Both the position numbers and the translations under genes were made by a program. DNA of 47,715 nt. It comes from an uncultured Candidatus Saccharibacteria bacterium. GTDB lineage: Bacteria; Patescibacteriota; Minisyncoccia; Phycocordibacterales; UBA2100. Below the pieces are notes generated by a model. The model saw only the letters and a program-made list of their open reading frames with translations. It was not told where the DNA came from and made no database searches. Location: contig CAYGMC010000003.1 of assembly GCA_964351105.1 (NCBI GenBank), positions 1-47,715 of the forward strand, read 5' to 3'. Within the stretch, counting starts at the first letter, position 1; every line of letters starts with the position of its first letter. This document shows, in pieces, positions 17,499 to 46,268 of the stretch.

Positions 17499-17837
17499 TC
17501 AGACGCCGCTCTTTAGATAATCTTTGACTCTCTGGCCATCTTCCAGTTCCTTTTCGCTCTTGTAATAGAGTTCTATGAAAACAATTCGTGTCGACTCTAT
17601 GTGGTGAGCATAAATAACGCGCATCGTCGTAGCCCGCAAATATCGACAAGCAAGGCGGATTTTGTAAATGCACACACCTTCGTCTCTGTAGAGACAATTC
17701 CAGTGTTTGCCGCCCGATTGAGGAGCGGCCCGAGAGAGCGTCAGTTTCAAGCTCTCGAGATCATCCCTTAATGTCAAATATTTCTTGTTTAGTCTCTTCA
17801 ACTCACGAGAAAATTCAGGCAACTCAGCATATTCCAT
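17499..17837 (-). CDS. RelE/ParE-superfamily toxin (HigB/Gp49-like)
   Basis: 112 aa from the ATG at 17837 (the track start at 17849 is TTG). The pattern EFSRELKRLNKKY...YKIRLA...MRVIY...IVFIELYYKSEKE is typical of RelE/ParE-fold toxins. It starts 13 nt after the stop of the antitoxin gene. Confidence 0.7.
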   Translation of the reverse strand: MEYAELPEFSRELKRLNKKYLTLRDDLESLKLTLSRAAPQSGGKHWNCLYRDEGVCIYKIRLACRYLRATTMRVIYAHHIESTRIVFIELYYKSEKELEDGQRVKDYLKSGV

Positions 17838-17849
17838 ATTGGGTAGCAA

Positions 17850-18566
17850 CTAGAGAGGGTCATATTCACGAACAGAAAAGGCATCGGTGCGATAAAATAC
17901 GTGTTCATATTCAAGATTTTTTCCGTCTTCCGCCGCTACATATGGAGTATCTTCATGCGAAAGTCGAGTGAGTTCGGCCGCGCTCTTATCGCCATAACGT
18001 GCAAGCACACTATCGATCATTTCTGTTTCGCGCCCACTGAGTGATGCAAGATCGGCTGATTTGCGCGGTAAGAATTTCCTCTGTTCGTATGCGAAGTAGG
18101 CACTTTTCACTTCTTCCAAGTCGCCATTTTTTTTCATCTCATCCACTACTTTCACGAATTCGCGCGGTGACGGACCGAAATGATTTTTGAAATACGTAAG
18201 ACCCATGAACTGTTCATCGTATTTTTCGTAATAATCGAAATCGATGAAGTAGAGAAGTTTGTAGAGTGCGGTCATGCCGATGTTTGGTTTGCCCGCAGTC
18301 TTTTCCAACATATAAAGGAGCACCTGTTTGAATTTCTCTAATTTTTTTTGAGGCACATTCACGCGTATGTCGCTCACAGAAATTTCGTGCGCCTCCACCA
18401 TACCGAATAATTCGTGCGCGCGTTCTTCCTCCGGCCGTGTCAGTATACGCTCGCCCTTCTCGACTTTTACTAATGTCGGCCGAGACATGCCAAGCTTTCC
18501 TGCGAGATATTCCTGAGTCATGCCGTGCAGTACTCGCTGTTCCTTTATGTTGAGTTTCTGAGCCAT
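17850..18566 (-). CDS. XRE-HTH plus Panacea (DUF4065/SocA-like) domain antitoxin
   Basis: N-terminal LHGMTQEYLAGKLGMSRPTLVKVEKGER is an XRE HTH. The central MTALYKLLYFIDFDYYEKYDEQFMGLTYFKNHFGPSP is the DUF4065 signature. The ATG at 18566 is preferred over the GTG at 18623. Confidence 0.8.
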   Translation of the reverse strand: MAQKLNIKEQRVLHGMTQEYLAGKLGMSRPTLVKVEKGERILTRPEEERAHELFGMVEAHEISVSDIRVNVPQKKLEKFKQVLLYMLEKTAGKPNIGMTALYKLLYFIDFDYYEKYDEQFMGLTYFKNHFGPSPREFVKVVDEMKKNGDLEEVKSAYFAYEQRKFLPRKSADLASLSGRETEMIDSVLARYGDKSAAELTRLSHEDTPYVAAEDGKNLEYEHVFYRTDAFSVREYDPL

Positions 18567-18657
18567 ACAAGAATGATGCCACACAATACACCATGCAGGG
18601 TGAGTTATCAACAGGATGTCCACAATTGTAATATTCTTGTAATAAGTACCGTTATCA

Positions 18658-18685
18658 TTGACATAGACGCACGAGGCACTAAAAT
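18658..18685 (+). promoter_or_regulatory. Near-consensus sigma70-type promoter (TTGACA-16 nt-TAAAAT)
   Basis: -35 TTGACA at 18658-18663 and -10 TAAAAT at 18680-18685. It points toward the small ORF and the terminator at 18907. Confidence 0.45.
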
Positions 18686-18734
18686 ATTACCAACTTGGGT
18701 GACCGAGGATTATCAGCAATAAATCTCAACGCAT

Positions 18735-18866
18735 ATGGCCCATTCAAAAGTGACTAGCAAAGCAGTGGCGAGCAAGGCATCGGCGGTTCTCCGCAATTCA
18801 CACTCGAGTAAAGCGGCGAGGAGCACCGCAGCGAGCGCACTTTCACAGCGTCACCGAAACAAGTAG
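18735..18866 (+). CDS. Candidate small basic Ser/Ala/Lys-rich protein (43 aa)
   Basis: MAHSKVTSKAVASKASAVLRNSHSSKAARSTAASALSQRHRNK. It is below the ORF-track cutoff and has no convincing SD. It is bracketed by the promoter at 18658 and the terminator at 18907. Confidence 0.3.
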   Translation: MAHSKVTSKAVASKASAVLRNSHSSKAARSTAASALSQRHRNK

Positions 18867-18906
18867 CGAAAGTTACCAGCTTGTCGAAAATCTCCAGCTT
18901 TTGCCA

Positions 18907-18930
18907 AAACCCCGCCTTTCGGCGGGGTTT
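18907..18930. terminator. Bidirectional terminator hairpin
   Basis: AAACCCCGCC-TTTC-GGCGGGGTTT between the convergent small transcription unit (+) and the RM gene (-, stop at 18935). Confidence 0.7.
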
Positions 18931-18934
18931 GAAA

Positions 18935-21715
18935 CTATGTCTGAGAACTCAGTTGCTTATACAACCCGAACAAAAACTCTAGCCGCTCGGGCTCGGATTT
19001 GAATACTCGTTTGCTGTGCCCGTCCGAAGCCTTGTGCGGAGGATGGCCGTAACAGGCATCAACGGCTTTATCGAGCGCTTTGTGCGCCTTGAGGAGATCG
19101 GCGGGCATGGTGTTGGGATCATAGAGATCGGCGAGAGTCGAGCTTGGGTACTTCGCCCGCACATCCAGCACTTCCTGCGCCGCGTCTTCCACCGCCTTTT
19201 TCTGCACATCACTCGGCTTCTCCGGCCACGGGAAATTGTTGTAGACGATGTCTTTTGAGTACCGATAGCGACTTTCTAGTCGGCCGGCAACTGCCCGCAT
19301 CCACGCCATGTGCATTTCGCTTTCGAGAATGCCAAAGTGGTAGAGGGTGGCATCGGAAATGACAAATAAAAGGTCGCTCGAAATGGTAGTCCGATTTTCA
19401 AAACCAACGGGAATGTATTTGCGCTTTTCTGATGATACCTTTGGGACGACCAAATAATTTCCTTCGGGCATATTCTCGACATGAAATCGAGTGGGCTTGT
19501 CTGCGAGTTTGCGTGTCGGCGCGCTTTTACTCATTGAACGGAATTGTCGTACTGATTCGATACGTCGCATGACCTCGGGCATTGCTTTCAGGTCTTCTGG
19601 ATTTGCTTTTCCAAGCCACAAACACCATCGTTCCCATCCATTAAGAAATTCGTCCGAGCCAATCCACCGACGAAAGAATTTTGCCGCGTTAGGTTCTTTC
19701 TTCAAAAACTCCTCTTTTTCTTCGGTGCTGAAAAGGTACATCCCGCCATCGATCGGTTTGTTGCCTATGCCGATTTCCGGCACATCGCAAATCGGCTTGC
19801 TGCGACTTTCGAGAAAGATGTCCGGTGCGTCCACAAGATACGGCGCGATATGTTTGGCCGCTACCTCCCGAGGCTCGCCACGAATATCGTCGTATTCGTA
19901 AATGAACAGATGTTTTCCTTCATGCAAGCCGAATCCGACGATGACACAATACACGGCGGCCTTGCCTGGGGCCTCGTTGCTCCACTTGAATGTGCGGTGT
20001 GCGAAGCGTATATGTACACCGAACTTAACCGTAAGCTCTTTCCATAAAATACCTACTTGCTCACCTTGCGTGATGGAATTGGTCGAGACGAATGCGACAT
20101 CGATATTCGTACCTTGAATGTACTGCGCGGCTTTGAGGTACCATCCCGAAACGTAGTCCAGCACGCCACCACCTTTTCCAAAAAGCTCTGCAATTTCTGC
20201 GCGTTGTTCGTCGGACATTATTTTCGAGCCAATGAATGGTGGGTTTCCCAAAATGTAGGTGAGCTTTTCTTTGGGTACCACGGTTTCCCAATCAATTTGC
20301 AATGCACTGACACCACTCACGATGTGTGGCTGTTCGGTGAGCGGAAGTTTGCGGAATGGCTTGCCGAAATACTCGCCGAGTTCAATGTTCATCATGTGAT
20401 CCATGAGCCAGAGCGATAGCTTGGCTATTTCGGCTGGGAACGCTTCTATCTCGATGCCGTACATCCGCTCTACGGAAAGCTTGGAAAGCTTTTTGATGTC
20501 GACCTCAAATGGGAGGAGGCTATGGCCAGCATCCACTTTCGCGCTCCCGTGTTTGTAGAGTCGCTTGATTATCTCGAGCTCTATGCGGCGCAGTTCGCGA
20601 TACGCGATGACGAGGAAGTTGCCGCAACCACATGCCGGATCGAGTAATGTGATCGCCGCGATCTTTGCCCACAGTGCATTCAGTTTTTCGTGATTTGTTT
20701 TTGCGGCTTCGAGCTCGGCGTGTAATTCATCGAGAAAGAGGCCGTTGATCACTTTGAGGATGTTTTGCTCACTTGTGTAATGCGCGCCGAGATCGTGCCG
20801 TTCTTTCTCATTCAAGACCGATTGGAACATCGAGCCGAAGATGGCGGGTGAGATGCGCGACCAATTGAATTCAACGCAGGTCATGAGCGTATCGCGAATT
20901 TCGCGCGAGCCAAAAACGGCGGGAATGGGTACAGCAAAAAGGCCGCCATTTACGTATGGGAGCGCTTTCAGTGCGTCGGGCATAGTGTCTTGACGACGCT
21001 CATCGGGGGTATTGAGTACGTAAAAAATTTGTCCGAGATGTGCGCCGATATCAGAGCCATCTGTTTTGGTGTTTTCTTCGAGGTAGCGGCGCATATCGTT
21101 GCGATTGAAAATACCGGTGTCGTCGGCAAAGAAACAAAACACGAGGCGAGTGAGAAGCGGCGAGATGTGTTCGGTGGGATAGTGTGAGATCTTGAGCGCT
21201 TCGTAGAGCTTTCCTATCGCGCGCACGGCACGCACGTTGATCGGGTCCTCTTCTTTGTACTCGCGCACTTCTTCATCGGTGAGAAAAGCAAAGCGCTGAA
21301 TATTGTCTGAAAGATCCTCCAAAGCAAACTCGAATTCCCTATCCTCTTTTGGTGCTTCGAGATCGTAGATGCGAAATCGGGCGAAATCGGAAACGACGAT
21401 GTATCGCGGTTTTTCATCTTCCGAGAGAGCGTCCATGTAATTTGCCGCCTGCAGAAAAGCACTGTCGAGACTCTTGCCAAGTGATTTGTGCTCGACAATG
21501 AAATTATCGGGTGCAAAAAAATCGATCTTGCCCGCGCCCCCTTTGATCAGCTTTACGCGCTCTTCAAAAATGCCGAGCGAACGTTCGCGCACATCGAAAA
21601 TATCGAAGAAGCGCACCCAAAATGCTTTTGCCCATTTGTCCTCGTCTTTCGCATCCTTCCACTCATGCGAAAAGGCGATCGCTTTATCTTGGATGTCGCG
21701 CCAATTGACCGTCAT
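18935..21715 (-). CDS. Type IIL (MmeI-like) bifunctional restriction endonuclease / N6-adenine DNA methyltransferase
   Basis: The N-terminus MTVNWRDIQDKAIAFSHEWKDAKDE...KIDFFAPDNFIVEHKSLGKSLD parallels the MmeI N-terminal D...ExK nuclease domain. MTase motif I is LDPACGCGNFLV and motif IV is GNPPFIGSK. A long C-terminal TRD completes about 926 aa. The ATG at 21715 is preferred over the TTG at 21733. Confidence 0.9.
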   Translation of the reverse strand: MTVNWRDIQDKAIAFSHEWKDAKDEDKWAKAFWVRFFDIFDVRERSLGIFEERVKLIKGGAGKIDFFAPDNFIVEHKSLGKSLDSAFLQAANYMDALSEDEKPRYIVVSDFARFRIYDLEAPKEDREFEFALEDLSDNIQRFAFLTDEEVREYKEEDPINVRAVRAIGKLYEALKISHYPTEHISPLLTRLVFCFFADDTGIFNRNDMRRYLEENTKTDGSDIGAHLGQIFYVLNTPDERRQDTMPDALKALPYVNGGLFAVPIPAVFGSREIRDTLMTCVEFNWSRISPAIFGSMFQSVLNEKERHDLGAHYTSEQNILKVINGLFLDELHAELEAAKTNHEKLNALWAKIAAITLLDPACGCGNFLVIAYRELRRIELEIIKRLYKHGSAKVDAGHSLLPFEVDIKKLSKLSVERMYGIEIEAFPAEIAKLSLWLMDHMMNIELGEYFGKPFRKLPLTEQPHIVSGVSALQIDWETVVPKEKLTYILGNPPFIGSKIMSDEQRAEIAELFGKGGGVLDYVSGWYLKAAQYIQGTNIDVAFVSTNSITQGEQVGILWKELTVKFGVHIRFAHRTFKWSNEAPGKAAVYCVIVGFGLHEGKHLFIYEYDDIRGEPREVAAKHIAPYLVDAPDIFLESRSKPICDVPEIGIGNKPIDGGMYLFSTEEKEEFLKKEPNAAKFFRRWIGSDEFLNGWERWCLWLGKANPEDLKAMPEVMRRIESVRQFRSMSKSAPTRKLADKPTRFHVENMPEGNYLVVPKVSSEKRKYIPVGFENRTTISSDLLFVISDATLYHFGILESEMHMAWMRAVAGRLESRYRYSKDIVYNNFPWPEKPSDVQKKAVEDAAQEVLDVRAKYPSSTLADLYDPNTMPADLLKAHKALDKAVDACYGHPPHKASDGHSKRVFKSEPERLEFLFGLYKQLSSQT

Positions 21716-21768
21716 GGGGGCATTATGACTCAATTCTCCCGCTTCGTCAGGTTCCTAATTTGGAAACT

Positions 21769-23085: not shown

Positions 23086-24039
23086 TCATGCTCGCCTCGA
23101 GAGCGTCGTGATTGGGCGACTTTGCGTAATGTAAAACTTCCCTCCCTCGTGCGCCCATTCGACATCTACCGGAAAGCCGTGATGTGCTTCGATTTTGAGG
23201 ACGAGATCGGCAAGCTCGTGAATCTGCTCGTCGGTGAGCACTGGCTCCCCCCCCTCCTTCTTGCTCAATTTTCTCCATTCGTTTCCTCCGGCCTTAGAAC
23301 GCCGCAATAATTTCTCTTGTATCGACACATCCTTCGAGATGATACGACGCGGATTCTTTGCGACAACATACGAATCGGGCGTAATGTGTCCCGACACAAT
23401 AGCTTCGCCAAGACCAAATCCCGCTTCAATAACGAGATGCCGGTGATCTTCTGTTACCGGATGCACCGAAAACGCAACGCCCGAAGATTCACTTTCCACC
23501 ATTTTCTGCACCACCACCGCGACCGATATATTCTTTTCGTGCAAATTGTTTTGGATTCGATAGAAGATTGCGCGCGGAGTAAAGAGCGACGCCCAGCATC
23601 GCCGCACGTTTTCAATGAGCGTATCTCGGGTCGTGTTTAAAAATGTATCAAGCTGTCCTGCCCACGCCGCCGAGGCAGAATCTTCGCTCGTCGCACTGGA
23701 TCGTACGGCCACATGGACAGAGCCCATATCCTCGAAATGCGCTTGTACTTCTTTTTCGATAGCACGTGGTACCTCCGATGCAAAAATCAGGTTTTGAATT
23801 TCGGTAGATGCGTTTCCTATAGTGTCTGTCTTCTCCTGGTCCACCGCTCGAAAGAGCTCCTCAATTTTTGTATTCAATTTCGCTTCTGCGAGGAAATGCG
23901 CAAACGCGCTTGCCAGCACTACAAATCCCGACGGTATCGGTATTCCCGCTTTCGTCATTTCTCCAAGCGACGCGCCTTTCCCGCCAGCAGTGGAAACGTG
24001 TCGCTTGTCGAGTTTGGCAACGTGTCGAACGAATCGCAT
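23086..24039 (-). CDS. PEP-utilising enzyme, stand-alone N-terminal ATP-grasp nucleotide-binding domain (PPDK_N-like)
   Basis: VSTAGGKGASLGEMTKAGIPIPSGFVV...VAVRSSATSEDSASAAWAGQLDTFLN...SGVAFSVHPVT...VIEAGFGLGEAIVSG...VDVEWAHEGGKFYITQSRPIT matches the PEP synthase/PPDK N-terminal domain. The ORF stops after this domain. Confidence 0.85.
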   Translation of the reverse strand: MRFVRHVAKLDKRHVSTAGGKGASLGEMTKAGIPIPSGFVVLASAFAHFLAEAKLNTKIEELFRAVDQEKTDTIGNASTEIQNLIFASEVPRAIEKEVQAHFEDMGSVHVAVRSSATSEDSASAAWAGQLDTFLNTTRDTLIENVRRCWASLFTPRAIFYRIQNNLHEKNISVAVVVQKMVESESSGVAFSVHPVTEDHRHLVIEAGFGLGEAIVSGHITPDSYVVAKNPRRIISKDVSIQEKLLRRSKAGGNEWRKLSKKEGGEPVLTDEQIHELADLVLKIEAHHGFPVDVEWAHEGGKFYITQSRPITTLSRRA

Positions 24040-24041
24040 AC

Positions 24042-25127
24042 TTATATCTTATAGAGATCTCGTAGCCAATACGCCTCCCAGTCTTTTCGTTTTAAGAATG
24101 CCGCATATGTAGGAAACTTCGACACGACGCATCGATCCCCGATTTTTGCTTTCATTACATTTCGTATCATCTCCTCACTCGGTCGCGCATCCATACCTGC
24201 AAGGTGAAACAAAGGCGAACACGAGAAGCACATCCACTCTAGAAATTTCATCTTGAGATCTTGCTTGCTCATCTTTTCGTACGCTGACCATTGTTTGACA
24301 GCGCGCTTACCGATATATTCCATCACCTCCTTCATTTTCTTTTGATCGCGATAAAACACGCCGTCTATTTCTACCGCATATTTCCGAAGCCCTCCCATGA
24401 CATCCCCCTTGTAGAGGGTATGCATGCCGATAAATTCGCATTTCACCTGCACACCTTCGTACATCATGTAAAGCTTCATGTCGGTGTACCTGAAACTTCG
24501 CATGGAAGGCCACAGTGTTGTGGGGCGCATCTTGGGATAGTGCTTAATCACAAGCGCGTGGTCTCGTCCAAATTTCTTGGACACATCATACGGCCCATAC
24601 ACTTCTTGCGATTCATCCACGTAGAAATCTCGATAGAGTGCATACGCGAGTGCCGACGCGCTGTTGCCCAAGCGCGAGATAAGACGCGCAACATCAGAAT
24701 TTCCTTTCTCCCACGGAATTCTTTTTATGAGCTTGTCGACCTCTCCCGATGTATGGATGATATTACTTTTCTGCGCCCAAACATCTTTCTTGAAAACTTG
24801 GCGAGTTAGTTTGTCGAAGTAATCAAATACTTCACGAGCCTGCACGTGTGTCGTGTGGTCGCTCATTCCATATTCGTATGCCGCAAAAGAGAAGGCTGGT
24901 CTGATACTCGATGGCGAAAGGAAATCCTTGGCGACTATGCGCAGAGGTACTTTCTTAGTTTTAAGACGCACCACCGCCTCATGCAATTTTTTGATAAAAG
25001 CACCGTTCAAAGCACGGTACCCTGCATAAAAATCTATTGGACCCCAATCGCCCGGCACCATACCAACGTACGCTTGATGTATCGACTTCGTGTATTCATC
25101 TACCCACTGTGGATGCGTCTTTCTCAT
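24042..25127 (-). CDS. Uncharacterised 361-aa protein encoded between the two PEP-utilising domain genes
   Basis: A long clean ORF with balanced, non-low-complexity composition. The ATG at 25127 lies 4 nt after the stop of the swivel-domain gene (TAAGGTTATG), and its own TAA lies 2 nt before the ATP-grasp gene ATG. The track start at 25169 is GTG. I could not recognise a family. Confidence 0.6.
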   Translation of the reverse strand: MRKTHPQWVDEYTKSIHQAYVGMVPGDWGPIDFYAGYRALNGAFIKKLHEAVVRLKTKKVPLRIVAKDFLSPSSIRPAFSFAAYEYGMSDHTTHVQAREVFDYFDKLTRQVFKKDVWAQKSNIIHTSGEVDKLIKRIPWEKGNSDVARLISRLGNSASALAYALYRDFYVDESQEVYGPYDVSKKFGRDHALVIKHYPKMRPTTLWPSMRSFRYTDMKLYMMYEGVQVKCEFIGMHTLYKGDVMGGLRKYAVEIDGVFYRDQKKMKEVMEYIGKRAVKQWSAYEKMSKQDLKMKFLEWMCFSCSPLFHLAGMDARPSEEMIRNVMKAKIGDRCVVSKFPTYAAFLKRKDWEAYWLRDLYKI

Positions 25128-25131
25128 AACC

Positions 25132-25464
25132 TTATAGTGCCCACACTTCCCCCTTTGTACCGTCGACACGGATACGCATGCCGTTTTTCAAAATCTTCGT
25201 CGCTTTTTTGGTATTCACGACACATGGCACACCTATCTCGCGTGCGATAACTGCCGCGTGTGAAGTGATACCTCCGATATCGGTAACAAACGCGGCCGCT
25301 TTGTTCATAAGCACAATCATCGAAGGCTCTGTGAGTTTGGCTACAAGTATGTCTCCCTCATCAAATTTCGGCATTCTTTGCGGATCGCGCACGATTCGCA
25401 CGGCACCCTCCGCGACACCGCGACTCGCGGCCATGCCAGTAAGAATTATTTTATATTTTTTCAT
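25132..25464 (-). CDS. PEP-utilising enzyme mobile (swivelling phospho-histidine) domain, stand-alone 110 aa
   Basis: GMAASRGVAEGAVRIV...GDILVAKLTEPSMIVLMNKAAAFVTDIGGITSHAAVIAREIGVPCVV is the PEP-utilizers signature, including the catalytic His. Confidence 0.85.
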   Translation of the reverse strand: MKKYKIILTGMAASRGVAEGAVRIVRDPQRMPKFDEGDILVAKLTEPSMIVLMNKAAAFVTDIGGITSHAAVIAREIGVPCVVNTKKATKILKNGMRIRVDGTKGEVWAL

Positions 25465-25488
25465 AGTATGTATATGTTAGCAGTTTAA

Positions 25489-25519
25489 TCCCACGGCGCT
25501 CTCAGCGAACGCCGTGGGA
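25489..25519 (-). terminator. GC-rich hairpin downstream of the G+C-rich orphan gene
   Basis: TCCCACGGCG-11 nt-CGCCGTGGGA, a 10-bp stem with no clear U-run. Confidence 0.4.
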
Positions 25520-25557
25520 CCTTTTGATCACCTCCTTTCAGTCGTTAGAGATCAGGG

Positions 25558-26214
25558 CTAGTCCGGGACTGAATAGTATTTACATTCGACCAAATTTCCG
25601 GCTTCGGTATAGCCGTAGTCGGTGAACGCACCCGATCCGTATCCGTCGCCCGGCAACCAGAAGTTGTTCTCCGCGAAGAGTCCGAGCTTCTGGTTCGCGA
25701 GGCGCGCCGCAGCGTCTGCGAACGGCATGTGCGAACACGCATCGCCGAAATTTCCGAGGCCGACATCGAACGCGATGTCGCGCGCCACGGCGAGGACGCC
25801 CCGGCCACACCGATCGACGAGTTCCGGCAGCAATGCGTGCTGCACCTGAGGAAGCATGTCGTAGGCCTTCGGCAGATCGTCGATAACCTTCCATTCCGGC
25901 TCGTCCTCGGGAAAGATCCCGAGCCTGCTGTCGCGAATGAGAGGCAGATTGATGGTCGGATTCAGCAGCTTGAGCGTCGGCGGCGAGCGGGTCTCGATCT
26001 GCGAAACCCGTCGCTCCTTCGGCTCGTACCCGCCCGGGAAATAGGCGTTCAGGATGCGAGCGGCGATCTTGGGCGAGTCGGGATGCAGGCCCATTTCGAG
26101 TTGCCAGACCCTGCTCTTGGGGTATTCGGGCGGCCGCTTTGCGCGCGGAAAGTGACGCCAGATGCGAGCGTAGGCAAGATCGGTACGAAGAACGATCGGG
26201 ACGACGATTGCCAT
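25558..26214 (-). CDS. Hypothetical protein, G+C-rich orphan (218 aa)
   Basis: The ATG at 26214 is preceded by a perfect AGGAGG 6 nt upstream. Local G+C is about 60-67% by hand count against about 46% in the flanking genes. Long overlapping ORFs in other frames are the usual high-GC artefact. No family recognised. Confidence 0.6.
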   Translation of the reverse strand: MAIVVPIVLRTDLAYARIWRHFPRAKRPPEYPKSRVWQLEMGLHPDSPKIAARILNAYFPGGYEPKERRVSQIETRSPPTLKLLNPTINLPLIRDSRLGIFPEDEPEWKVIDDLPKAYDMLPQVQHALLPELVDRCGRGVLAVARDIAFDVGLGNFGDACSHMPFADAAARLANQKLGLFAENNFWLPGDGYGSGAFTDYGYTEAGNLVECKYYSVPD

Positions 26215-26402
26215 TTTGACCTCCTGGTCTGTTTGGCGTTGCATTACTCCGCAGGCGACCCTTGCGAAGCTTCTCGGCCACTATCTCTATTGACCGTGGG
26301 AGATTGTAGTTGAATAATTTGTAAATGTCAATGATTTTGGACTGAAAATGACCATTTTTATACGTATATTTTGAGATTTCTGGAGCCGTGTTGTCAGAAT
26401 AC

Positions 26403-26430
26403 TTGACAGATGGTGAATTATGGCTATACT
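26403..26430 (+). promoter_or_regulatory. Candidate promoter TTGACA-16 nt-TATACT overlapping the first ATG of the TrmB-like ORF
   Basis: -35 at 26403-26408 and -10 at 26425-26430. If used, transcription would start about at the second ATG (26438), giving a leaderless mRNA. It conflicts with the use of the ATG at 26420, which has a weak GGTG SD. Confidence 0.35.
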
Positions 26431-27187
26431 TCTGCACATGAACCCTTCAGACATACTCAAACAGCTCGGGCTAGGAGATAAGGAGATAGCGGTGTACATG
26501 GGACTCCTTGAACTTGGAGAGGCTTCTGTACTCACAATCTCAAAGAAAGCCGGCATAAAGAGACCTACTACATATTTGATACTCGATGAACTCAAGTCGC
26601 GCGGCCTCGTGTCGAGTACGATAAAGGGCAAAAAAACGCTGTTCTCGGCGCAACATCCGCAAAAAATTCTCGCGGAAGCAGAATTGCGCGTCAAGCAACT
26701 GCAAGATGTCATTCCCCAATTCGAGGCAATGATGCATCGCTCCGACGATCGCCCGCGCGTCAAAATATACGAGGGCAAAGAGGCTCTTGATCGCGCGTAC
26801 GACGACTCTTTCATTGTAAAAGGCGAGATACTCTTTATGAGCAATATGGACATCTTGCAGGATGTCTTTGCGCGTACCTTACAAAAATTCGATTACTCGA
26901 CTCTCTCGCCCGAATTTAGTTCAAGAGAAATAATTGTTGACACTGAAGGTGCGAGAAAATACGCATCGAGGGTCGCTGGTCCGTATCGCAAAGTCCGATT
27001 CATGCCCAAAGAATTTTCACCATTTTCAACCGACATCGGAATCTTTGGCAACAACGCTATCATAACCAACGTCAAACAAGAATTCTTTAGCGTACGGATC
27101 GAGAGCAAAGAAATCGCCGATGCTTTCCGCGCGATGTTTGAGGCGATGTGGCAAATGTCAACAGACCCTACCGAAAAGACACCGTAA
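26420..27187 (+). CDS. TrmB-family transcriptional regulator
   Basis: ILKQLGLGDKEIAVYMGLLELGEASVLTISKKAGIKRPTTYLILDELKSRGLVS is the TrmB N-terminal wHTH pattern, followed by a C-terminal effector-like domain. The start is either 26420 or 26438. Confidence 0.75.
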   Translation: MAILLHMNPSDILKQLGLGDKEIAVYMGLLELGEASVLTISKKAGIKRPTTYLILDELKSRGLVSSTIKGKKTLFSAQHPQKILAEAELRVKQLQDVIPQFEAMMHRSDDRPRVKIYEGKEALDRAYDDSFIVKGEILFMSNMDILQDVFARTLQKFDYSTLSPEFSSREIIVDTEGARKYASRVAGPYRKVRFMPKEFSPFSTDIGIFGNNAIITNVKQEFFSVRIESKEIADAFRAMFEAMWQMSTDPTEKTP

Positions 27188-27248: not shown

Positions 27249-27833
27249 ATGGGAACGATGGAGCAGGCATCGAAGAAACGAACGCGGCGCGGAAATGTAG
27301 AGCGAGCGATTCTCTCGGGGCTCGCCGTTGCTGGTATTGGTCTGGTTGCTATGGCCGCCCCCAACACACTTCAGCTCTTGAAATACGCGGACCCAGACTG
27401 GATCATCAAGCGAGACCCGAAGCAGCGCGTCCGTGAAGCCACGTATAGACTCAAGAAAAAGAAACTTGTCGAATTTGTGAGCGAGAACGGGCACGTACGG
27501 CTCCGCATTACCGACAAGGGGAAGGCGCACCTGCAATCCCTATCCTTCGGCCCGTTACGTAAGCCAAGGCGATGGGATGGAAAATGGCGTCTTGTGATAT
27601 TTGATATTCCGGAAAAGAAACGTGGGCTTCGCAACCGAGCGCGTAGTATTGTTGTGGGTTTTGGTTTTATAAAATTACAACATAGCGTTTGGGCGTACCC
27701 CTACGATTGCGAAGAAGCAATCGCGCTCCTTAAGGCGCATTTGCATATTGGCAGAGATTTGCTCTACATAATCGCAGATGCGATCGAATACGACGCGCCG
27801 CTTCGCAAGGAATTCGGCCTCCGCCGCGAATGA
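27249..27833 (+). CDS. PaaX-like regulator with wHTH and Cas2-fold domain, N-terminal TM segment
   Basis: WDGKWRLVIFDIPEKKRGLRNRARSIVVGFGFIKLQHSVWAYPY is the PaaX/Cas2-like beta-alpha-beta motif. It is preceded by a wHTH-like ATYRLKKKKLVEFVSENGHVRLRITDKG and a hydrophobic N-terminal segment. Confidence 0.65.
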   Translation: MGTMEQASKKRTRRGNVERAILSGLAVAGIGLVAMAAPNTLQLLKYADPDWIIKRDPKQRVREATYRLKKKKLVEFVSENGHVRLRITDKGKAHLQSLSFGPLRKPRRWDGKWRLVIFDIPEKKRGLRNRARSIVVGFGFIKLQHSVWAYPYDCEEAIALLKAHLHIGRDLLYIIADAIEYDAPLRKEFGLRRE

Positions 27834-35431: not shown

Positions 35432-35869
35432 TTATGTGAGTTTCAAACTGTACGGATTCGTTTCCTTGCGCTCAAAACCAAGCTTTTGGTAGAGTTTGTT
35501 TCCTGCAACGCGCTCCGGCCTGCTGGTAAGGTAGAGTGTTTTTATATGTTCTGTTCGCGCCGTATCAATCAAAGCGCGCATGATTTTTTCGCCCAACCCC
35601 TGTCCCCGATACCCACTATCAACCACGACATCCTCAATGTGGCCACCGCGCTTGCCAAATTTGGTGATCATGTACAGTGTCGCCATGCCGACGATACGCC
35701 CATCATCTTTTGCGACGACAAGTGCCACGTTTTGGTCTTCGACAATGCTCTGCAGGTCACCGATTGAACCCAACTTTTCTTTAGGATTTTCTCGCAATTG
35801 GGGCAACAATTGATTGATCTCCCCCAGCGCCTGTTCACTCACCTCAAGTTGGCGCTCAATGATAATCAT
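35432..35869 (-). CDS. GNAT-family N-acetyltransferase
   Basis: IEDVVVDSGYRGQGLGEKIMRALIDTA...NKLYQKLGF is GNAT motif A/B. The true ATG at 35869 overlaps the kbl stop (ATGA). The 241-aa track ORF is an upstream out-of-gene extension. Confidence 0.8.
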   Translation of the reverse strand: MIIIERQLEVSEQALGEINQLLPQLRENPKEKLGSIGDLQSIVEDQNVALVVAKDDGRIVGMATLYMITKFGKRGGHIEDVVVDSGYRGQGLGEKIMRALIDTARTEHIKTLYLTSRPERVAGNKLYQKLGFERKETNPYSLKLT

Positions 35870-37056
35870 GAAAGTACGCCAAATTTTTTGGCAACGAGCG
35901 TGAACTTTTCTACTGCCGTCGCAATATCTTCTTCGGTGTGCGCCGCAGAGACTTGCACGCGGATACGCGCCTTTCCTTTTGGCACCACGGGATAAGCAAA
36001 ACCGATGACGTAGATGCCCTCTTCGAGGAGCGCTTTGGCCATGTCGACCGCCATTTTTTCGTCGCCCAGCATGATTGGCGTAATCGGGTGCTGTGCCTCG
36101 GAAACGGTAAATCCTTTTTCGCGCATTGCCGTGCGAAATGCTTTTACATTTGCCCACAGTTTTTCACGAAGTTCTGGGTGCTTCGGTAAATAATCGCGCA
36201 CGACCGCGAACGACGCGCCCACGACCGCCGTGTCGAGTGCGTTGGAAAAGAGGTACGTGCGCGAACGATTGCGAAGATAATCCGCTATCTCTGTGCGCGA
36301 GGCGGTAAAAGCACCTCCCGCGCCGCCGAGTGCCTTGCCAAACGTGCCTGTGAGAAAATCGACACGTCCTTTCACTCCGCACGCTTGTGGAGTGCCTGCG
36401 CCCATATCTCCCATCACGCCGGTTGCGTGTGCATCGTCTACCATCACGAGCGCGTCGTATTTGTCGGCCAAATCACAAATTTCTTTGAGTGGCGCGATGT
36501 CACCATCCATGCTGAACACGCCGTCGGTCGCTATTACCCGCAATCGCTTGTCTTTTGTCGCTTTCAATTTTTCTTCCAAATCCGCCATATCCATGTGCTT
36601 AAAAACATGCCGCTCGGCTTTGGAAAGTCGCACGGCGTCGATGATGGATGCATGATTGAGTTCGTCGCTGATGATTGCGTCTTGATCACCAAAAAACGTT
36701 TGGAATAGTCCGAGATTGGCCATAAAGCACGAGGAGTAGAGCACGGCATCTTCCATTTCGGTAAAATCAGCGATTGCACGTTCGAGCTCCTTGTGAATCG
36801 TTTGTGTGCCACAAATGAAACGAACCGACGCGAGGCCATAGCCCCACCTCTGTACTGCTTGTTCAGAAAGTTTTTCCATCTCGGAAGTGCCGGAGAGACC
36901 GAGATAATTGTTGGAACAAAAATTGAGTAACTTTTTCCCACCGACGACAATCTCTCTCCCCTGCGGAGACTCAAGCACACGCTCAGTCTTGTACGTGCCA
37001 TTTTCTCGCATCGCGGCGAGCTCGTCCGAGAGAATTTGTTTGAATTTGCCGTACAT
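35866..37056 (-). CDS. kbl: 2-amino-3-ketobutyrate CoA ligase (glycine C-acetyltransferase)
   Basis: LNFCSNNYLGLSG, DELNHASIIDAVR, VDDAHATGVMG and the PLP-lysine context GTFGKALGG are typical of Kbl/AONS-family enzymes. It is adjacent to tdh. Confidence 0.9.
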   Translation of the reverse strand: MYGKFKQILSDELAAMRENGTYKTERVLESPQGREIVVGGKKLLNFCSNNYLGLSGTSEMEKLSEQAVQRWGYGLASVRFICGTQTIHKELERAIADFTEMEDAVLYSSCFMANLGLFQTFFGDQDAIISDELNHASIIDAVRLSKAERHVFKHMDMADLEEKLKATKDKRLRVIATDGVFSMDGDIAPLKEICDLADKYDALVMVDDAHATGVMGDMGAGTPQACGVKGRVDFLTGTFGKALGGAGGAFTASRTEIADYLRNRSRTYLFSNALDTAVVGASFAVVRDYLPKHPELREKLWANVKAFRTAMREKGFTVSEAQHPITPIMLGDEKMAVDMAKALLEEGIYVIGFAYPVVPKGKARIRVQVSAAHTEEDIATAVEKFTLVAKKFGVLS

Positions 37057-37061
37057 AAAAT

Positions 37062-38288
37062 TTATCCGTTTACTTTAAACAAAATCTTTGGATGTTTGTT
37101 CATCGCCGCTTCAAAACCCTCTGCACTGTATTCGCTCATCGGCAAAATGGTGCCTTCGCCTTTTTTGAGAATCACGTTCCAGATCGCGTCTTGAATGCCA
37201 TTCGTCTTATCGGAGAGCATGCGTTGTGAGATTTGCCATGTTTTGAAAATTTCACGACCGATGACGCCGTGAATGGTGAGTCCACGCACGATGACATTCG
37301 GCGAGAAGTTTGGAATCGTCATGTCTCCGTCTTTGATACCGAAAGCGATCACGTGTCCGCCACGACGAGTTGCGAGAATACAGTTGTTGAGCGAAGCGGC
37401 TGGCCCCGCCATTTCCATTGTTACATCGACGCCCTTGCCATAGGTGAGCTCCATAATGCGCGCGATAACTTCTGGATTGCTGTCTGATTCACCCGCCAGA
37501 CCGGACGACTCCTGTCGTTCGGGCGGGTTTTCGATCAATATCGTCTCGTGCGCGCCGAGCTCTTTTGCCATTTGCAAATTATCCGCATTCACATCGACGG
37601 CAATTATTTTTGCCGCACCAAAATATTTGAGGAGAAGAATTGCAAACATGCCGATAGGACCTGCGCCAAACACGGCGACGCGCTGGCCGCGAAAGTCTAC
37701 CTTGGTCGTGGCGTGCACGGCGTTGCCAAACGGATCGAGAATGGATGCGATTTCGGGGCGGATGCGATTTTGATCCACTGCCCATAAGTTTTTGGCAGGA
37801 ATTTTTACGTACTCCGCATAAATGCCATCGATTGAAATTCCCAAAATTGCTTCGTTCATGCACACGTGTTCTTCGCCAATGCGACACTGGTAGCATCGGC
37901 CACAGGTAACGTGCGAATCGCCAGAAGCAAGCCCGCCCACCTCAATCTTCACCGGATTCTTTTCGTCGAGATCGTTGTAAAGCCGCGGCACCATTGCGCC
38001 CATTTCTACTATCTCCCCCACGAATTCATGTCCCATGATGCGGAGATTCTTTTTTTCACGCTCGAGCGATGAGTGGAGCAAATCGCGAAAAGCGGCACGG
38101 TGCCAGAGCCCCCTGTCGGTCCCGCACACACCTGCGTATTTGATTTTGAGAATGACGGAGAGCGAATCTTCTGGATTATTTGGGTCCAATACTGGCATGG
38201 GTACCTCACGTAGAGTAAAACCTTTACTGGTCGTCCAGCCATCCTTTTCCTTGTCGAATGTAAGCGCCTGTATAGTTTTGGACGTCAT
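37062..38288 (-). CDS. tdh: Zinc-dependent L-threonine 3-dehydrogenase-like alcohol dehydrogenase
   Basis: GVCGTDRGLW, GHEFVGEIVE, the structural-zinc motif CGRCYQCRIGEEHVC and the Rossmann GAGPIGMFAILL. The ATG at 38288 has an AGGTGG SD. It contains an about 20-aa acidic insert and is operonic with kbl. Confidence 0.8.
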   Translation of the reverse strand: MTSKTIQALTFDKEKDGWTTSKGFTLREVPMPVLDPNNPEDSLSVILKIKYAGVCGTDRGLWHRAAFRDLLHSSLEREKKNLRIMGHEFVGEIVEMGAMVPRLYNDLDEKNPVKIEVGGLASGDSHVTCGRCYQCRIGEEHVCMNEAILGISIDGIYAEYVKIPAKNLWAVDQNRIRPEIASILDPFGNAVHATTKVDFRGQRVAVFGAGPIGMFAILLLKYFGAAKIIAVDVNADNLQMAKELGAHETILIENPPERQESSGLAGESDSNPEVIARIMELTYGKGVDVTMEMAGPAASLNNCILATRRGGHVIAFGIKDGDMTIPNFSPNVIVRGLTIHGVIGREIFKTWQISQRMLSDKTNGIQDAIWNVILKKGEGTILPMSEYSAEGFEAAMNKHPKILFKVNG

Positions 38289-38416
38289 AGAGCCACCTAA
38301 TCTTACCGCATTCAAGTCCATGGTACGACATTGTGTTTTATTGTTTAATGTGACATAATGTCGATAGGTACAAACCTGTTCTCGTCTCTTCCCCGCAACA
38401 ACGTGAGGTAAAAAAC

Positions 38417-45896: not shown

Positions 45897-46268
45897 TTAT
45901 AGATCCATGAGCCCAAGACTTATTTCAAGCGCGCGGTCGACGCGCATCATTGTCTCATGCCGCAAGACCCCGAGCCTTTTTCCGAGACGACGTTTGTCGA
46001 TAGTGCGTACTTGATTTAATAGAACTACGCATGGCTTTTCGATTCCCCCGTCAGGAGGATTGACATAGACTTCTGTCGGATACAATTTTGTATCAAATTG
46101 CGAGCTCACCGCCGCGACTATAGTCGTGTTGCCATGACGATTACCGATATTGTTTTGCAGAACGACTGCAGGTCTCGTCTTTTTGATTTCTGATCCGACG
46201 GTCGGATCGAATGCCACCACATACACTTCTCCGCGCAACGGGGTTATGCGCTTGGAGATTTTTGCCAT
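45897..46268 (-). CDS. mazF: MazF/PemK-family endoribonuclease toxin (copy 1)
   Basis: RGEVYVVAFDPTVGSEIKKTRPAVVLQNNIGNRHGNTTIVAAVSSQ...VLLNQVRTIDKRRL is the classic PemK/MazF pattern. Confidence 0.88.
   Translation of the reverse strand: MAKISKRITPLRGEVYVVAFDPTVGSEIKKTRPAVVLQNNIGNRHGNTTIVAAVSSQFDTKLYPTEVYVNPPDGGIEKPCVVLLNQVRTIDKRRLGKRLGVLRHETMMRVDRALEISLGLMDL

What the first reader, a model, noticed from the sequence alone, without database searches (positions are those of the whole stretch)
23086..25464. Split three-gene PEP-utilising phosphotransferase operon built around an unrecognisable 361-aa protein
Seen in the sequence:
- Three minus-strand genes are translationally coupled. The order is a 110-aa stand-alone swivelling phospho-His domain (GGITSHAAVIAREIGVP), then a 361-aa protein of no family I can recognise, then a 317-aa stand-alone PPDK_N ATP-grasp domain.
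- The junctions are TAA-4 nt-ATG and TAA-2 nt-ATG.
- No PEP/pyruvate-binding TIM-barrel domain is encoded here, so this is not a normal PEP synthase or PPDK.

Established knowledge: the ATP-grasp, substrate-binding and swivel-His domain logic is that of dikinase-type small-molecule phosphotransferases such as rifampin phosphotransferase.

Inference: the middle protein is the substrate-binding or acceptor module of a three-component ATP-dependent phosphotransferase with unknown substrate. The operon abuts and points into rpsF-ssb-rpsR.
Basis: partly seen in the sequence, partly recalled or inferred. Interest (0 to 1): 0.72.

Follow-up and report, generated by a model that had tools for sequence, protein, structure and literature searches.

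The report
Split dikinase with unknown acceptor protein
Three adjacent genes in a Patescibacteria (CPR) genome encode a split ATP-driven phosphate-transfer enzyme: an ATP-binding protein, a small free-standing histidine phosphate carrier, and a 361-aa partner from an undescribed family of about 400 sequence clusters that matches no known family or fold and most likely holds the still unknown substrate.

Summary
On the minus strand lie:
- a 110-aa stand-alone swivel phospho-His protein (PF00391, E 5.5e-28)
- a 361-aa protein with no Pfam, NCBIfam, PADLOC or PDB match
- a 317-aa stand-alone ATP-grasp protein (PF01326, E 1.1e-95)

The junctions are TAA+4 nt+ATG and TAA+2 nt+ATG.

The middle protein ("X") gives a confident AlphaFold2 model (pLDDT 89.5). 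The model has no fold relative in PDB or BFVD. X belongs to a family of about 402 clusters at 50% identity.

In all 20 distinct loci examined, X is immediately preceded by, or fused to, a swivel domain. The ATP-grasp gene is adjacent or fused in 8 of 18 informative loci. One locus, probably archaeal, encodes a single swivel–ATP-grasp–X polypeptide. Fifteen swivel–X fusions and one X–ATP-grasp fusion also exist.

This rules out a frameshifted ppsA.

The substrate is unknown. The clues are TrmB-family regulators in 9 loci, a translationally coupled sodium:solute symporter in 2 loci, and phosphatases of several superfamilies next to or fused with X.

I classify it as a new variant of a known kind. 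All evidence is computational.

The parts
25132..25464 (-). Stand-alone swivel phospho-His carrier protein, 110 aa. Catalytic His69 lies in the motif GGITSHAAVIARE.
   Evidence: PF00391 E 5.5e-28, residues 34-105 against profile positions 1-72 of 72. Best NCBIfam match is PEP synthase PRK06464, positions 353-461 of 798. The sequence was read.
24042..25127 (-). Protein X, 361 aa: the proposed second catalytic (acceptor) module, from an undescribed family.
   Evidence: - No Pfam, NCBIfam, PADLOC or PDB sequence hit.
- AlphaFold2 model with pLDDT 89.5 and pTM 0.88.
- Best Foldseek E-value 0.38 against PDB and 0.12 against BFVD.
- 402 family representatives.
- Family-wide conserved residues: R76, D115, N122, Y165, D167, E175, G178-P179-Y180, W206, Y223, H236, K292.
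23086..24039 (-). Stand-alone ATP-grasp (PPDK_N) nucleotide-binding subunit, 317 aa.
   Evidence: PF01326 E 1.1e-95, full-length match. NCBIfam scores: PEP synthase PRK06464 324 bits, RPH 295 bits, PPDK only 59 bits.
25488..25520 (-). G+C-rich hairpin between the upstream 228-aa gene and the swivel gene. It is probably the terminator or attenuator of the upstream gene.
   Evidence: Read (CCCACGGCG...CGCCGTGGG). The same position in L001, L003, L005 and L006 carries a hairpin with compensatory changes followed by a T-rich tail. In the window the T-tail is degenerate, and the terminator scan does not list the hairpin.
25558..26244 (-). Conserved upstream gene 'up228' (228 aa, or 218 aa from the second Met). 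Function unknown. It may be an accessory of the system.
   Evidence: - Orthologues lie directly upstream of swivel-X in L001, L003, L005, L006 and L007, with E-values from 7e-50 to 6e-22.
- The conserved FRHGPR, SQIxRS and CSH motifs recall histidine phosphatases, but no statistical test supports this.
- The single-sequence AlphaFold2 model is unusable, with pLDDT 34.
26420..27187 (+). Divergently transcribed TrmB-family regulator, 255 aa. It is the candidate regulator of the cluster.
   Evidence: - PF01978 E 5e-14.
- A homologous TrmB gene lies next to swivel-X in L001, L006, L007, L016, L017, L018, L019 and L021.
- Back-to-back promoter-like sites, each matching 11 of 12 positions, lie at 26331..26303 (-) and 26403..26430 (+).

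Best explanation
The three genes encode a three-polypeptide, His-mediated dikinase-type phosphotransferase. The steps below are established for PEP synthase, PPDK and RPH and are inferred here.

1. The 317-aa ATP-grasp subunit binds ATP. His69 of the free 110-aa swivel protein takes the beta-phosphate, and AMP and Pi are released. This assumes water-dikinase chemistry, because the ATP-grasp scores as PEP-synthase/RPH-type and not PPDK-type.
2. The phospho-His carrier then docks on X.
3. X binds the acceptor and catalyses transfer of the phosphate to it. It probably uses the family-wide conserved cluster R76, D115, D167, E175, the GPY 178-180 loop, H236 and K292.

X thus takes the place of the PEP/pyruvate TIM barrel of PEP synthase. 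The carrier is a separate diffusible protein rather than a tethered domain.

The acceptor is unknown. The best guess is an imported small polar metabolite, such as a sugar-like or nucleoside/cofactor-like solute.

What the data show: domain identities, gene coupling, conservation, fusions, and the absence of known relatives of X. What is inferred: the chemistry, its direction and the substrate class.
For: Domain identities and completeness.

Catalytic His motif: present in the window and in all but four of the X-linked swivel proteins or domains examined. The fixed motif pattern found no match in L015, one of the two X-linked swivels in each of L017 and L018, or the stand-alone swivel of L019, and I did not inspect those sequences by eye.

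Swivel-X linkage:
- Adjacent or fused in 20 of 20 distinct loci.
- Often a 4-nt overlap between the two genes, for example in L001 and L003.

ATP-grasp linkage:
- Immediately downstream of X in the window, L005, L006 and L010.
- Immediately upstream of the swivel gene in L012 and L013, where X is only 22-24% identical to the window protein.
- About 1 kb away in L003.

Fusions:
- 15 swivel-X, 1 X-ATP-grasp (P0117) and 1 swivel-ATP-grasp-X (P0136; on 3 contigs, next to TopoVI genes).

Cognate pairing:
- X-linked swivel proteins form their own group. They score 101-169 bits against the window swivel.
- Non-X-linked swivels score 26-88 bits, even within the same genome: L003 156 against 54-86, L010 131 against 75. 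The swivel next to the X-HAD fusion in L013 scores 93.

X looks like a catalytic site:
- A confident fold.
- Conserved Asp, Glu, Arg, Lys and His residues typical of a phosphoryl-transfer site.

Substrate clues:
- An SSF symporter gene lies directly upstream of the ATP-grasp gene in L012 and L013; in L012 the two genes overlap by 4 nt.
- TrmB regulators in 9 loci.
- Phosphatases next to or fused with X: an X-HAD fusion in L013 (HAD_2 E 1.6e-11), Metallophos in L019 (E 4.8e-7) and IMPase in L003 (E 4e-36).

Precedent for split dikinases: HpeHI, CreHI and PpsAB (PMC12167813).
Against: - There is no biochemical evidence of any kind.
- The ATP-grasp gene is missing from the retrieved flanks (6-10 kb on each side where the contig allowed) in 10 of 18 informative loci. 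These include the closest relative on a long contig (L001/L009, 65% X identity), where X is followed directly by rpsF. ATP-grasp dependence of swivel+X is therefore not universal in cis.
- The two fusions that contain the ATP-grasp are each a single cluster.
- I could not obtain model coordinates or a complex prediction. The clustering of the conserved residues into one pocket, and docking of His69 onto it, are therefore untested.
- The neighbourhoods are heterogeneous and do not converge on one pathway.
Confidence: 0.7

Rival explanations
1. The machinery is the same but runs the other way, or X is the donor site. X would bind a high-energy phosphorylated metabolite and load the swivel His. 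The ATP-grasp would then make ATP from AMP (as PPDK does in anaerobes), or the carrier would pass the phosphate to a different acceptor.
For: - Swivel+X occurs without a nearby ATP-grasp in 10 of 18 informative loci. X could therefore be the entry point for phosphate.
- From general knowledge, CPR organisms are fermentative and energy-poor, so substrate-level ATP gain would be useful.
- HpeH alone catalyses phosphotransfer between phospho-substrate and substrate (PMC12167813), which shows that such sites are reversible.
Against: - The ATP-grasp scores as PEP synthase or RPH type (324 and 295 bits), not PPDK type (59 bits). Water-dikinase chemistry is effectively irreversible.
- No candidate alternative acceptor is conserved next to the pair.
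Confidence: 0.12
2. X is not an enzyme module. It is a protein target or regulator that receives the phosphate itself (for example on the conserved H236) or is controlled by binding the phospho-carrier, as in a small phosphorelay.
For: - H236 is conserved in 82% of family members.
- The carrier is free-standing like HPr or NPr.
- X has no recognisable catalytic fold.
- TrmB regulators are nearby.
Against: - The most conserved positions are Asp, Gly-Pro-Tyr, Trp and Tyr rather than the His.
- X is fused to a HAD hydrolase in L013, and its operon includes a solute symporter in L012 and L013. Both point to small-molecule chemistry.
- Tandem swivel-X pairs (L017, L018) and X-X fusions look like diversification of substrate modules.
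Confidence: 0.1
3. The flanking genes are fragments of a decayed or frameshifted ppsA, and the middle ORF is an unrelated insertion or a spurious ORF.
For: Both flanking proteins score best against PEP synthase models.
Against: - The gene order, swivel-X-ATP-grasp, is not the ppsA order.
- Both domains are full length.
- The same split genes are intact in many genomes.
- X is a conserved family with 402 representatives and a confident fold.
- No TIM-barrel remnant is present in the three genes.
Confidence: 0.01
4. The three genes merely share an operon and do not work as one enzyme. The swivel and ATP-grasp would serve some other acceptor, and X would be functionally independent.
For: The ATP-grasp is not always adjacent. 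Clusters in L003, L005 and L010 hold several other swivel-bearing modules that could be the true clients of the ATP-grasp.
Against: - Swivel-X linkage in 20 of 20 loci.
- 15 independent swivel-X fusions, plus X-ATP-grasp and swivel-ATP-grasp-X fusions.
Confidence: 0.05

Closest known systems
Phosphoenolpyruvate synthase (PpsA; pyruvate, water dikinase)
   Same: - The ATP-grasp and swivel proteins score best against PpsA models: 324 bits over model positions 5-341, and 127 bits over positions 353-461 of 798.
- The GGxTSHAA motif around the catalytic His matches the PpsA consensus quoted in PMC12167813.
- In the distant loci L012 and L013 the gene order is ATP-grasp, swivel, X. That is the PpsA domain order, with X in the position of the C-terminal domain.
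   Different: - There is no PEP/pyruvate-binding TIM barrel. X is unrelated in sequence, and its predicted secondary structure is a helical N-terminal part, an antiparallel-looking beta region and C-terminal helices, not a (beta/alpha)8 barrel.
- The enzyme is three separate polypeptides.
- The gene order in the window is permuted (swivel, X, ATP-grasp).
Two-component small-molecule dikinases: HpeHI, CreHI and phenylphosphate synthase PpsAB
   Same: The ATP-grasp is a separate subunit that charges a swivel His, which then phosphorylates a small molecule bound elsewhere (PMC12167813). CPR loci L003, L005 and L010 also carry such RPH-like [partial substrate domain-swivel] genes next to a single PPDK_N gene.
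   Different: - In HpeH, CreH and PpsA the swivel is fused C-terminally to an RPH-like substrate-binding domain.
- Here the swivel is free-standing, and the putative substrate module follows it as a separate protein.
- X shows no similarity to the RPH, HpeH or PigC models (0 NCBIfam hits). The best Foldseek E-value against PDB is 0.38, with no dikinase entry among the 50 matches shown.
Rifampin phosphotransferase (RPH)
   Same: The three-part logic is the same: ATP-grasp, substrate-binding part and swivel His (PMC4844700). The ATP-grasp scores 295 bits and the swivel 90 bits against the RPH model.
   Different: - RPH is a single chain ordered ATP-grasp, rifampin-binding domain, swivel.
- X does not match the rifampin-binding domain region (model positions about 314-760) in any search.
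PTS phosphocarrier logic (Enzyme I swivel domain; HPr/NPr as free carriers)
   Same: A small diffusible phospho-His protein shuttles phosphate from a donor enzyme to substrate-specific modules. The swivel matches the PTS Enzyme I models weakly (50 bits). Some loci hold one ATP-grasp gene and several carrier-module pairs.
   Different: The donor module is an ATP-grasp, so the donor is ATP and not PEP. The carrier has the swivel fold rather than the HPr fold. No EII-type components are present.

Membership tests
PEP synthase / PPDK (PEP-utilising dikinases) | N-terminal ATP-grasp nucleotide-binding domain (PF01326) | tested here: met
   E 1.1e-95, profile positions 3-315 of 328
PEP synthase / PPDK (PEP-utilising dikinases) | Swivel phospho-His domain (PF00391) with the catalytic His in a GGxTSHAA-type motif | tested here: met
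   E 5.5e-28. GGITSHAAVIARE with His69.
PEP synthase / PPDK (PEP-utilising dikinases) | C-terminal PEP/pyruvate-binding TIM-barrel domain (PEP-utilizers_C) | tested here: not met
   None of the three proteins matches model positions 462-798 of PRK06464 or any such Pfam domain. The predicted secondary structure of X is not (beta/alpha)8.
PEP synthase / PPDK (PEP-utilising dikinases) | All domains on one polypeptide | tested here: not met
   Three ORFs separated by stop codons. The split is conserved in L006, L010, L012 and L013.
RPH-type small-molecule dikinases (including PigC/RedH) | Central substrate-binding domain homologous to the RPH rifampin-binding domain, lying between the ATP-grasp and the swivel | tested here: not met
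   X has 0 NCBIfam hits, although the RPH, PigC and PRK06241 models are in that library. Best Foldseek E-value against PDB is 0.38, with no dikinase entry among the 50 matches shown. The gene order also differs.
Two-component dikinases (HpeHI/CreHI/PpsAB) | Separate ATP-grasp subunit | tested here: met
   317-aa stand-alone PPDK_N protein
Two-component dikinases (HpeHI/CreHI/PpsAB) | Second subunit made of an RPH-like substrate domain fused to a C-terminal swivel domain | tested here: not met
   The swivel protein is 110 aa and consists of the swivel domain alone. X is separate, lies downstream and is unrelated to RPH. Where fusions occur, the order is swivel-X, not substrate domain-swivel.
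Dikinase mechanism (any of the above) | ATP-dependent phosphorylation of the swivel His with release of AMP and Pi or PPi, followed by transfer to an acceptor | not testable with these tools
   Requires biochemistry. Inferred only from domain homology and fusions.
Histidine phosphatase superfamily (for the upstream 228-aa protein) | RHG motif with significant similarity to the fold or profile | tested here: inconclusive
   RH(G) and SQIxRS motifs are conserved. There is no Pfam, NCBIfam or PDB-profile hit. HHalign against the L016-type upstream protein gives probability below 1%. The AlphaFold2 model has pLDDT 34.

The most novel reading that the evidence does not exclude
X defines a previously undescribed catalytic domain. 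Together with a free phospho-His carrier, it would form a modular hub-and-spoke phosphorylation system in small-genome organisms (CPR bacteria and probably DPANN-like archaea).

- One ATP-grasp 'charger' would load several diffusible swivel carriers.
- Each carrier would be dedicated to its own acceptor module (X, X paralogues, RPH-like modules).
- The system would be under TrmB control and paired with dedicated phosphatases.

In effect this would be an ATP-powered analogue of the PTS, used to capture or activate scavenged metabolites.
Probability: 0.25. Interest if true: 0.8.

Novelty: new variant of a known kind. Interest (0 to 1): 0.62.

Why it matters
The PEP-utilising/dikinase superfamily is a textbook case of a swivelling phospho-His domain moving between two active sites. 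Only a few second-site modules are known to me:
- the PEP/pyruvate TIM barrel
- the RPH-like domain
- the glucan-binding parts of GWD

X would add a new, structurally unrelated second site. It would also add an architecture in which the carrier is a free protein.

The family is sizeable, at about 400 clusters at 50% identity, yet it has no Pfam or NCBIfam model. It is kept in organisms with very small genomes, where retained genes tend to matter.

Identifying the substrate could reveal a missing salvage or activation step in CPR/DPANN metabolism. The conserved TrmB regulator offers an independent handle on the ligand.

Tried and rejected
What led nowhere:
- **Known family for X.** Pfam, NCBIfam, PADLOC and PDB phmmer on the single sequence found nothing. 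A 75-sequence profile against PDB and Pfam scans of all 75 members found only noise.
- **Fold search with the confident X model.** The best E-value was 0.38 against PDB (BamC N-terminal domain, TM-score about 0.14-0.22) and 0.12 against BFVD. Neither is meaningful.
- **Phage origin.** The IMG/VR scan found no relative.
- **Riboswitch or leader RNA as a ligand clue.** Rfam at E<=1 gave only two sub-threshold chance hits.
- **Upstream 228-aa protein as a histidine phosphatase.** The motifs are suggestive, but every statistical test failed. The homologue search returned only the protein itself. The single-sequence AlphaFold2 model was unusable.
- **The 330-aa N-terminal domain of the P0066-type fusions.** It is neither a diverged X nor a known structure.
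- **A Thr at position -2 from the catalytic His as a marker of X-linked carriers.** It is not consistent.
- **Broad-alignment locus searches.** Two failed for lack of a conserved stretch. The profile run of the word-indexed search added only 2 proteins.
- **Literature.** No paper describes this family. One search was uninformative.

Explanations rejected: a frameshifted ppsA, and a chance ORF.
Full report
**Observation**

The minus strand of the window carries three tightly packed ORFs.
- 25464..25132 encodes a 110-aa protein.
- After TAA and 4 nt, an ATG at 25127 opens a 361-aa ORF that ends at 24042.
- After TAA and 2 nt, an ATG at 24039 opens a 317-aa ORF that ends at 23086.
- rpsF-ssb-rpsR follow on the same strand, 55 nt downstream.

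Pfam assigns the first protein to PF00391, the PEP-utilising enzyme mobile (swivel) domain (E 5.5e-28). It assigns the third to PF01326, PPDK_N, the ATP-grasp domain (E 1.1e-95, essentially full length).

Against the 798-position PEP synthase model PRK06464, the third protein covers positions 5-341 and the first covers 353-461. Nothing in the three genes covers the C-terminal PEP/pyruvate domain. The catalytic histidine is His69, in GGITSHAAVIARE.

The middle protein has no credible hit in any sequence search:
- Pfam, NCBIfam and PADLOC
- PDB sequences

**The middle protein X is a real, conserved and unrecognised family**

The word-indexed search of 5.8 billion proteins found 11 full-length relatives of 39-100% identity. 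Those that carry names come from Patescibacteria or Paceibacterota.

A profile search of 1.84 billion cluster representatives found 402 proteins at E<=1e-3, and 111 at E<=1e-30.

AlphaFold2 with the 11-sequence alignment gave a confident model (pLDDT 89.5, pTM 0.88). It has a helical N-terminal part, a central region of consecutive beta-strands (about residues 175-259) and a helical C-terminal part.

Foldseek found nothing meaningful. The best E-value was 0.38 against PDB and 0.12 against BFVD. A 75-sequence profile found nothing in PDB sequences, and no member has a Pfam domain. AlphaFold DB was not available, so I can only say that X has no relative in PDB or BFVD.

Across 146 aligned family segments the best conserved positions are as follows:

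| Position (window numbering) | Conservation |
|---|---|
| G178-P179-Y180 | 99 / 87 / 97% |
| D115 | 94% |
| D167 | 92% |
| W206 | 92% |
| Y223 | 92% |
| H236 | 82% |
| Y165 | 81% |
| R76 | 79% |
| N122 | 76% |
| K292 | 73% |
| E175 | 89% counting E or D |

This mixture of acidic, basic and His residues is what one expects at a Mg-dependent phosphoryl-transfer site. That these residues lie together in space is an inference, because I could not inspect the model coordinates.

**Genomic context**

I examined 20 distinct loci: the window plus L001, L003, L005-L008 and L010-L022. They were reached through, and scanned with the window proteins.

In every locus X is immediately preceded by a swivel gene, often with a 4-nt overlap, or is fused to a swivel domain.

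The X-linked swivel proteins form their own group.
- They score 101-169 bits against the window carrier.
- Non-X-linked swivels score 26-88 bits, even in the same genome (L003: 156 against 54-86; L010: 131 against 75).
- The swivel next to the X-HAD fusion in L013 scores 93 bits.

This argues for a dedicated carrier-module pair.

The ATP-grasp gene is found as follows:
- Directly downstream of X in the window, L005, L006 and L010.
- About 1 kb away in L003.
- Directly upstream of the swivel gene in L012 and L013, where X is only 22-24% identical to the window protein. The order there is SSF symporter, ATP-grasp, swivel, X, which is the PEP synthase domain order.
- Fused in L020.

It is absent from the retrieved flanks (6-10 kb where the contig allowed) in L001, L007, L008, L011, L016-L019, L021 and L022. 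L014 and L015 are too short to judge. That makes 8 of 18 informative loci.

**Fusions**

A census of the 161 retrieved proteins gave these architectures:

| Architecture | Count |
|---|---|
| X alone | 134 |
| swivel-X | 15 |
| N-domain-swivel-X | 2 |
| N-domain-X | 3 |
| X-X | at least 1 (P0017; P0014 also has two matched X stretches) |
| X-ATP-grasp (P0117) | 1 |
| swivel-ATP-grasp-X (P0136, 764 aa) | 1 |

P0136 is seen on three contigs. Its context includes topoisomerase VI genes, so it is probably archaeal. Several swivel-X fusions were confirmed as single ORFs in six-frame translations of L014-L016.

Most fusion clusters are singletons. Individual fusions could therefore be assembly artefacts, but their number and independence make the link solid.

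**Interpretation**

The data exclude a decayed ppsA. The gene order is wrong, all parts are intact and conserved, and X is a family in its own right.

The data support a three-polypeptide dikinase-type phosphotransferase.
- The ATP-grasp subunit loads His69 of a free carrier.
- The carrier delivers the phosphate to a site on X.

The ATP-grasp scores like PEP synthase or RPH (324 and 295 bits) and unlike PPDK (59 bits). I therefore favour water-dikinase stoichiometry: ATP + H2O + S gives AMP + Pi + S-P.

The closest characterised systems are the two-component dikinases HpeHI, CreHI and phenylphosphate synthase PpsAB (PMC12167813), and single-chain RPH (PMC4844700). In all of these the substrate domain is RPH-like and precedes the swivel on the same chain. 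Here the carrier stands alone, and the putative substrate module is unrelated and follows it.

Loci L003, L005 and L010 also hold several RPH-like [partial substrate domain-swivel] genes beside a single PPDK_N gene. This suggests that one ATP-grasp may serve several carrier-module pairs. That would also explain why swivel+X can sit far from any ATP-grasp gene.

**Substrate clues (weak)**

- A TrmB-family regulator lies beside the cluster in 9 loci spanning distant subfamilies. In the window it is divergent from the upstream gene, with two promoter-like sites matching 11 of 12 positions.
- In L012 and L013 a sodium:solute symporter gene lies directly upstream of the ATP-grasp gene; in L012 the two genes overlap by 4 nt.
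- Phosphatases of different superfamilies lie next to or are fused with X:
  - an X-HAD fusion in L013 (HAD_2 E 1.6e-11)
  - a metallophosphoesterase directly upstream in L019 (E 4.8e-7)
  - an IMPase-family gene between X and the ATP-grasp in L003 (E 4e-36)
  - a sub-threshold His_Phos_1 protein upstream in L014-L016 (E 3.8e-4)
- Nucleotide or cofactor genes appear in some neighbourhoods: NAPRTase in L010, NadE in L020, a pyrimidine 5'-nucleotidase in L016. There is no consistent pattern.

These clues fit a small imported metabolite that is phosphorylated and later dephosphorylated. They do not identify it.

**The upstream 228-aa gene**

Window 25558-26244 is conserved directly upstream in the six closest loci. 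It carries FRHGPR, SQIxRS and CSH motifs.

Nothing links it statistically to histidine phosphatases or to the upstream genes of other subfamilies. Structure prediction without an alignment failed.

A hairpin with compensatory changes and, in relatives, a T-rich tail separates it from the swivel gene.

**Verdict**

This is a genuine, well-supported finding. It is a known mechanism class (swivel-His dikinase) in a new arrangement: three polypeptides, a free carrier, and a second-site module from an undescribed family with no fold relative in PDB or BFVD.

It is a new variant of a known kind, not categorically new. The function of X and the direction of the reaction remain inferred. The substrate is unknown.

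Noticed in passing
window 17499-21733 (-): A defence or mobile island lies between rpsR and efp. It holds a complete MmeI-family type IIL restriction-modification enzyme (932 aa; MmeI_N, hel, Mtase, TRD and C domains; E down to 9e-89), an HTH+Panacea (SocA-like) antitoxin (257 aa) and a 116-aa ORF that may be its toxin. The syntenic relatives L001 and L006 have no such genes after rpsR.
   Followed up: partly
window 27249-27833 (+): A 194-aa protein with a PaaX-like central Cas2-like domain (PF20803, E 2.5e-19) lies between the TrmB regulator and TatD. It is absent at this position in L001 and L006.
   Followed up: no
L003 8093-11914; L005 9000-13090; L010 1-2364: CPR loci hold one PPDK_N gene followed by several swivel-bearing genes. 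Some of these carry only the C-terminal part of an RPH-like substrate domain (NCBIfam alignments to RPH/PRK06241 model positions of about 690-860). This suggests multi-module split dikinase clusters that share one ATP-grasp.
   Followed up: partly
P0066, P0082, P0042, P0057, P0059 (N-terminal ~330 aa); L019 8001-9000: A second unrecognised domain of about 330 aa is fused N-terminally to swivel-X or to X. It has no Pfam, NCBIfam or PDB-profile hit and no HHalign similarity to X.
   Followed up: partly
L012 4315-5685; L013 4266-5642: A sodium:solute symporter (SSF) gene lies directly upstream of the ATP-grasp-swivel-X genes in two distant loci; in L012 it overlaps the ATP-grasp gene by 4 nt. The subfamily cannot be assigned; the best equivalog hits are PanF or PutP, far below their cut-offs.
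   Followed up: partly
L013 12027-14103 (-): A second module sits in the same locus: a 113-aa swivel protein followed by a 591-aa fusion of an X-like domain and a HAD hydrolase.
   Followed up: partly
L017 6649-9458; L018 4149-6949: Tandem duplicated pairs, swivel-X-swivel-X, with the two X copies belonging to different subfamilies.
   Followed up: no
window 25488-25520 and the homologous positions in L001, L003, L005, L006: The intergenic hairpin is conserved through compensatory base changes. Relatives have a T-rich tail, but the window copy does not. Termination may therefore be leaky here, and the swivel operon may be read through from the upstream gene's strong promoter-like site at 26331..26303.
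   Followed up: partly
window 35866-38321 (-): Adjacent genes for a class I/II aminotransferase-fold protein and a zinc-dependent dehydrogenase. They resemble a Kbl/Tdh threonine-degradation pair. This rests only on the Pfam hits and my reading of the N-terminal sequences.
   Followed up: no
window 45897-46268 (-): A PemK/MazF-like toxin gene (PF02452, E 9e-32).
   Followed up: no
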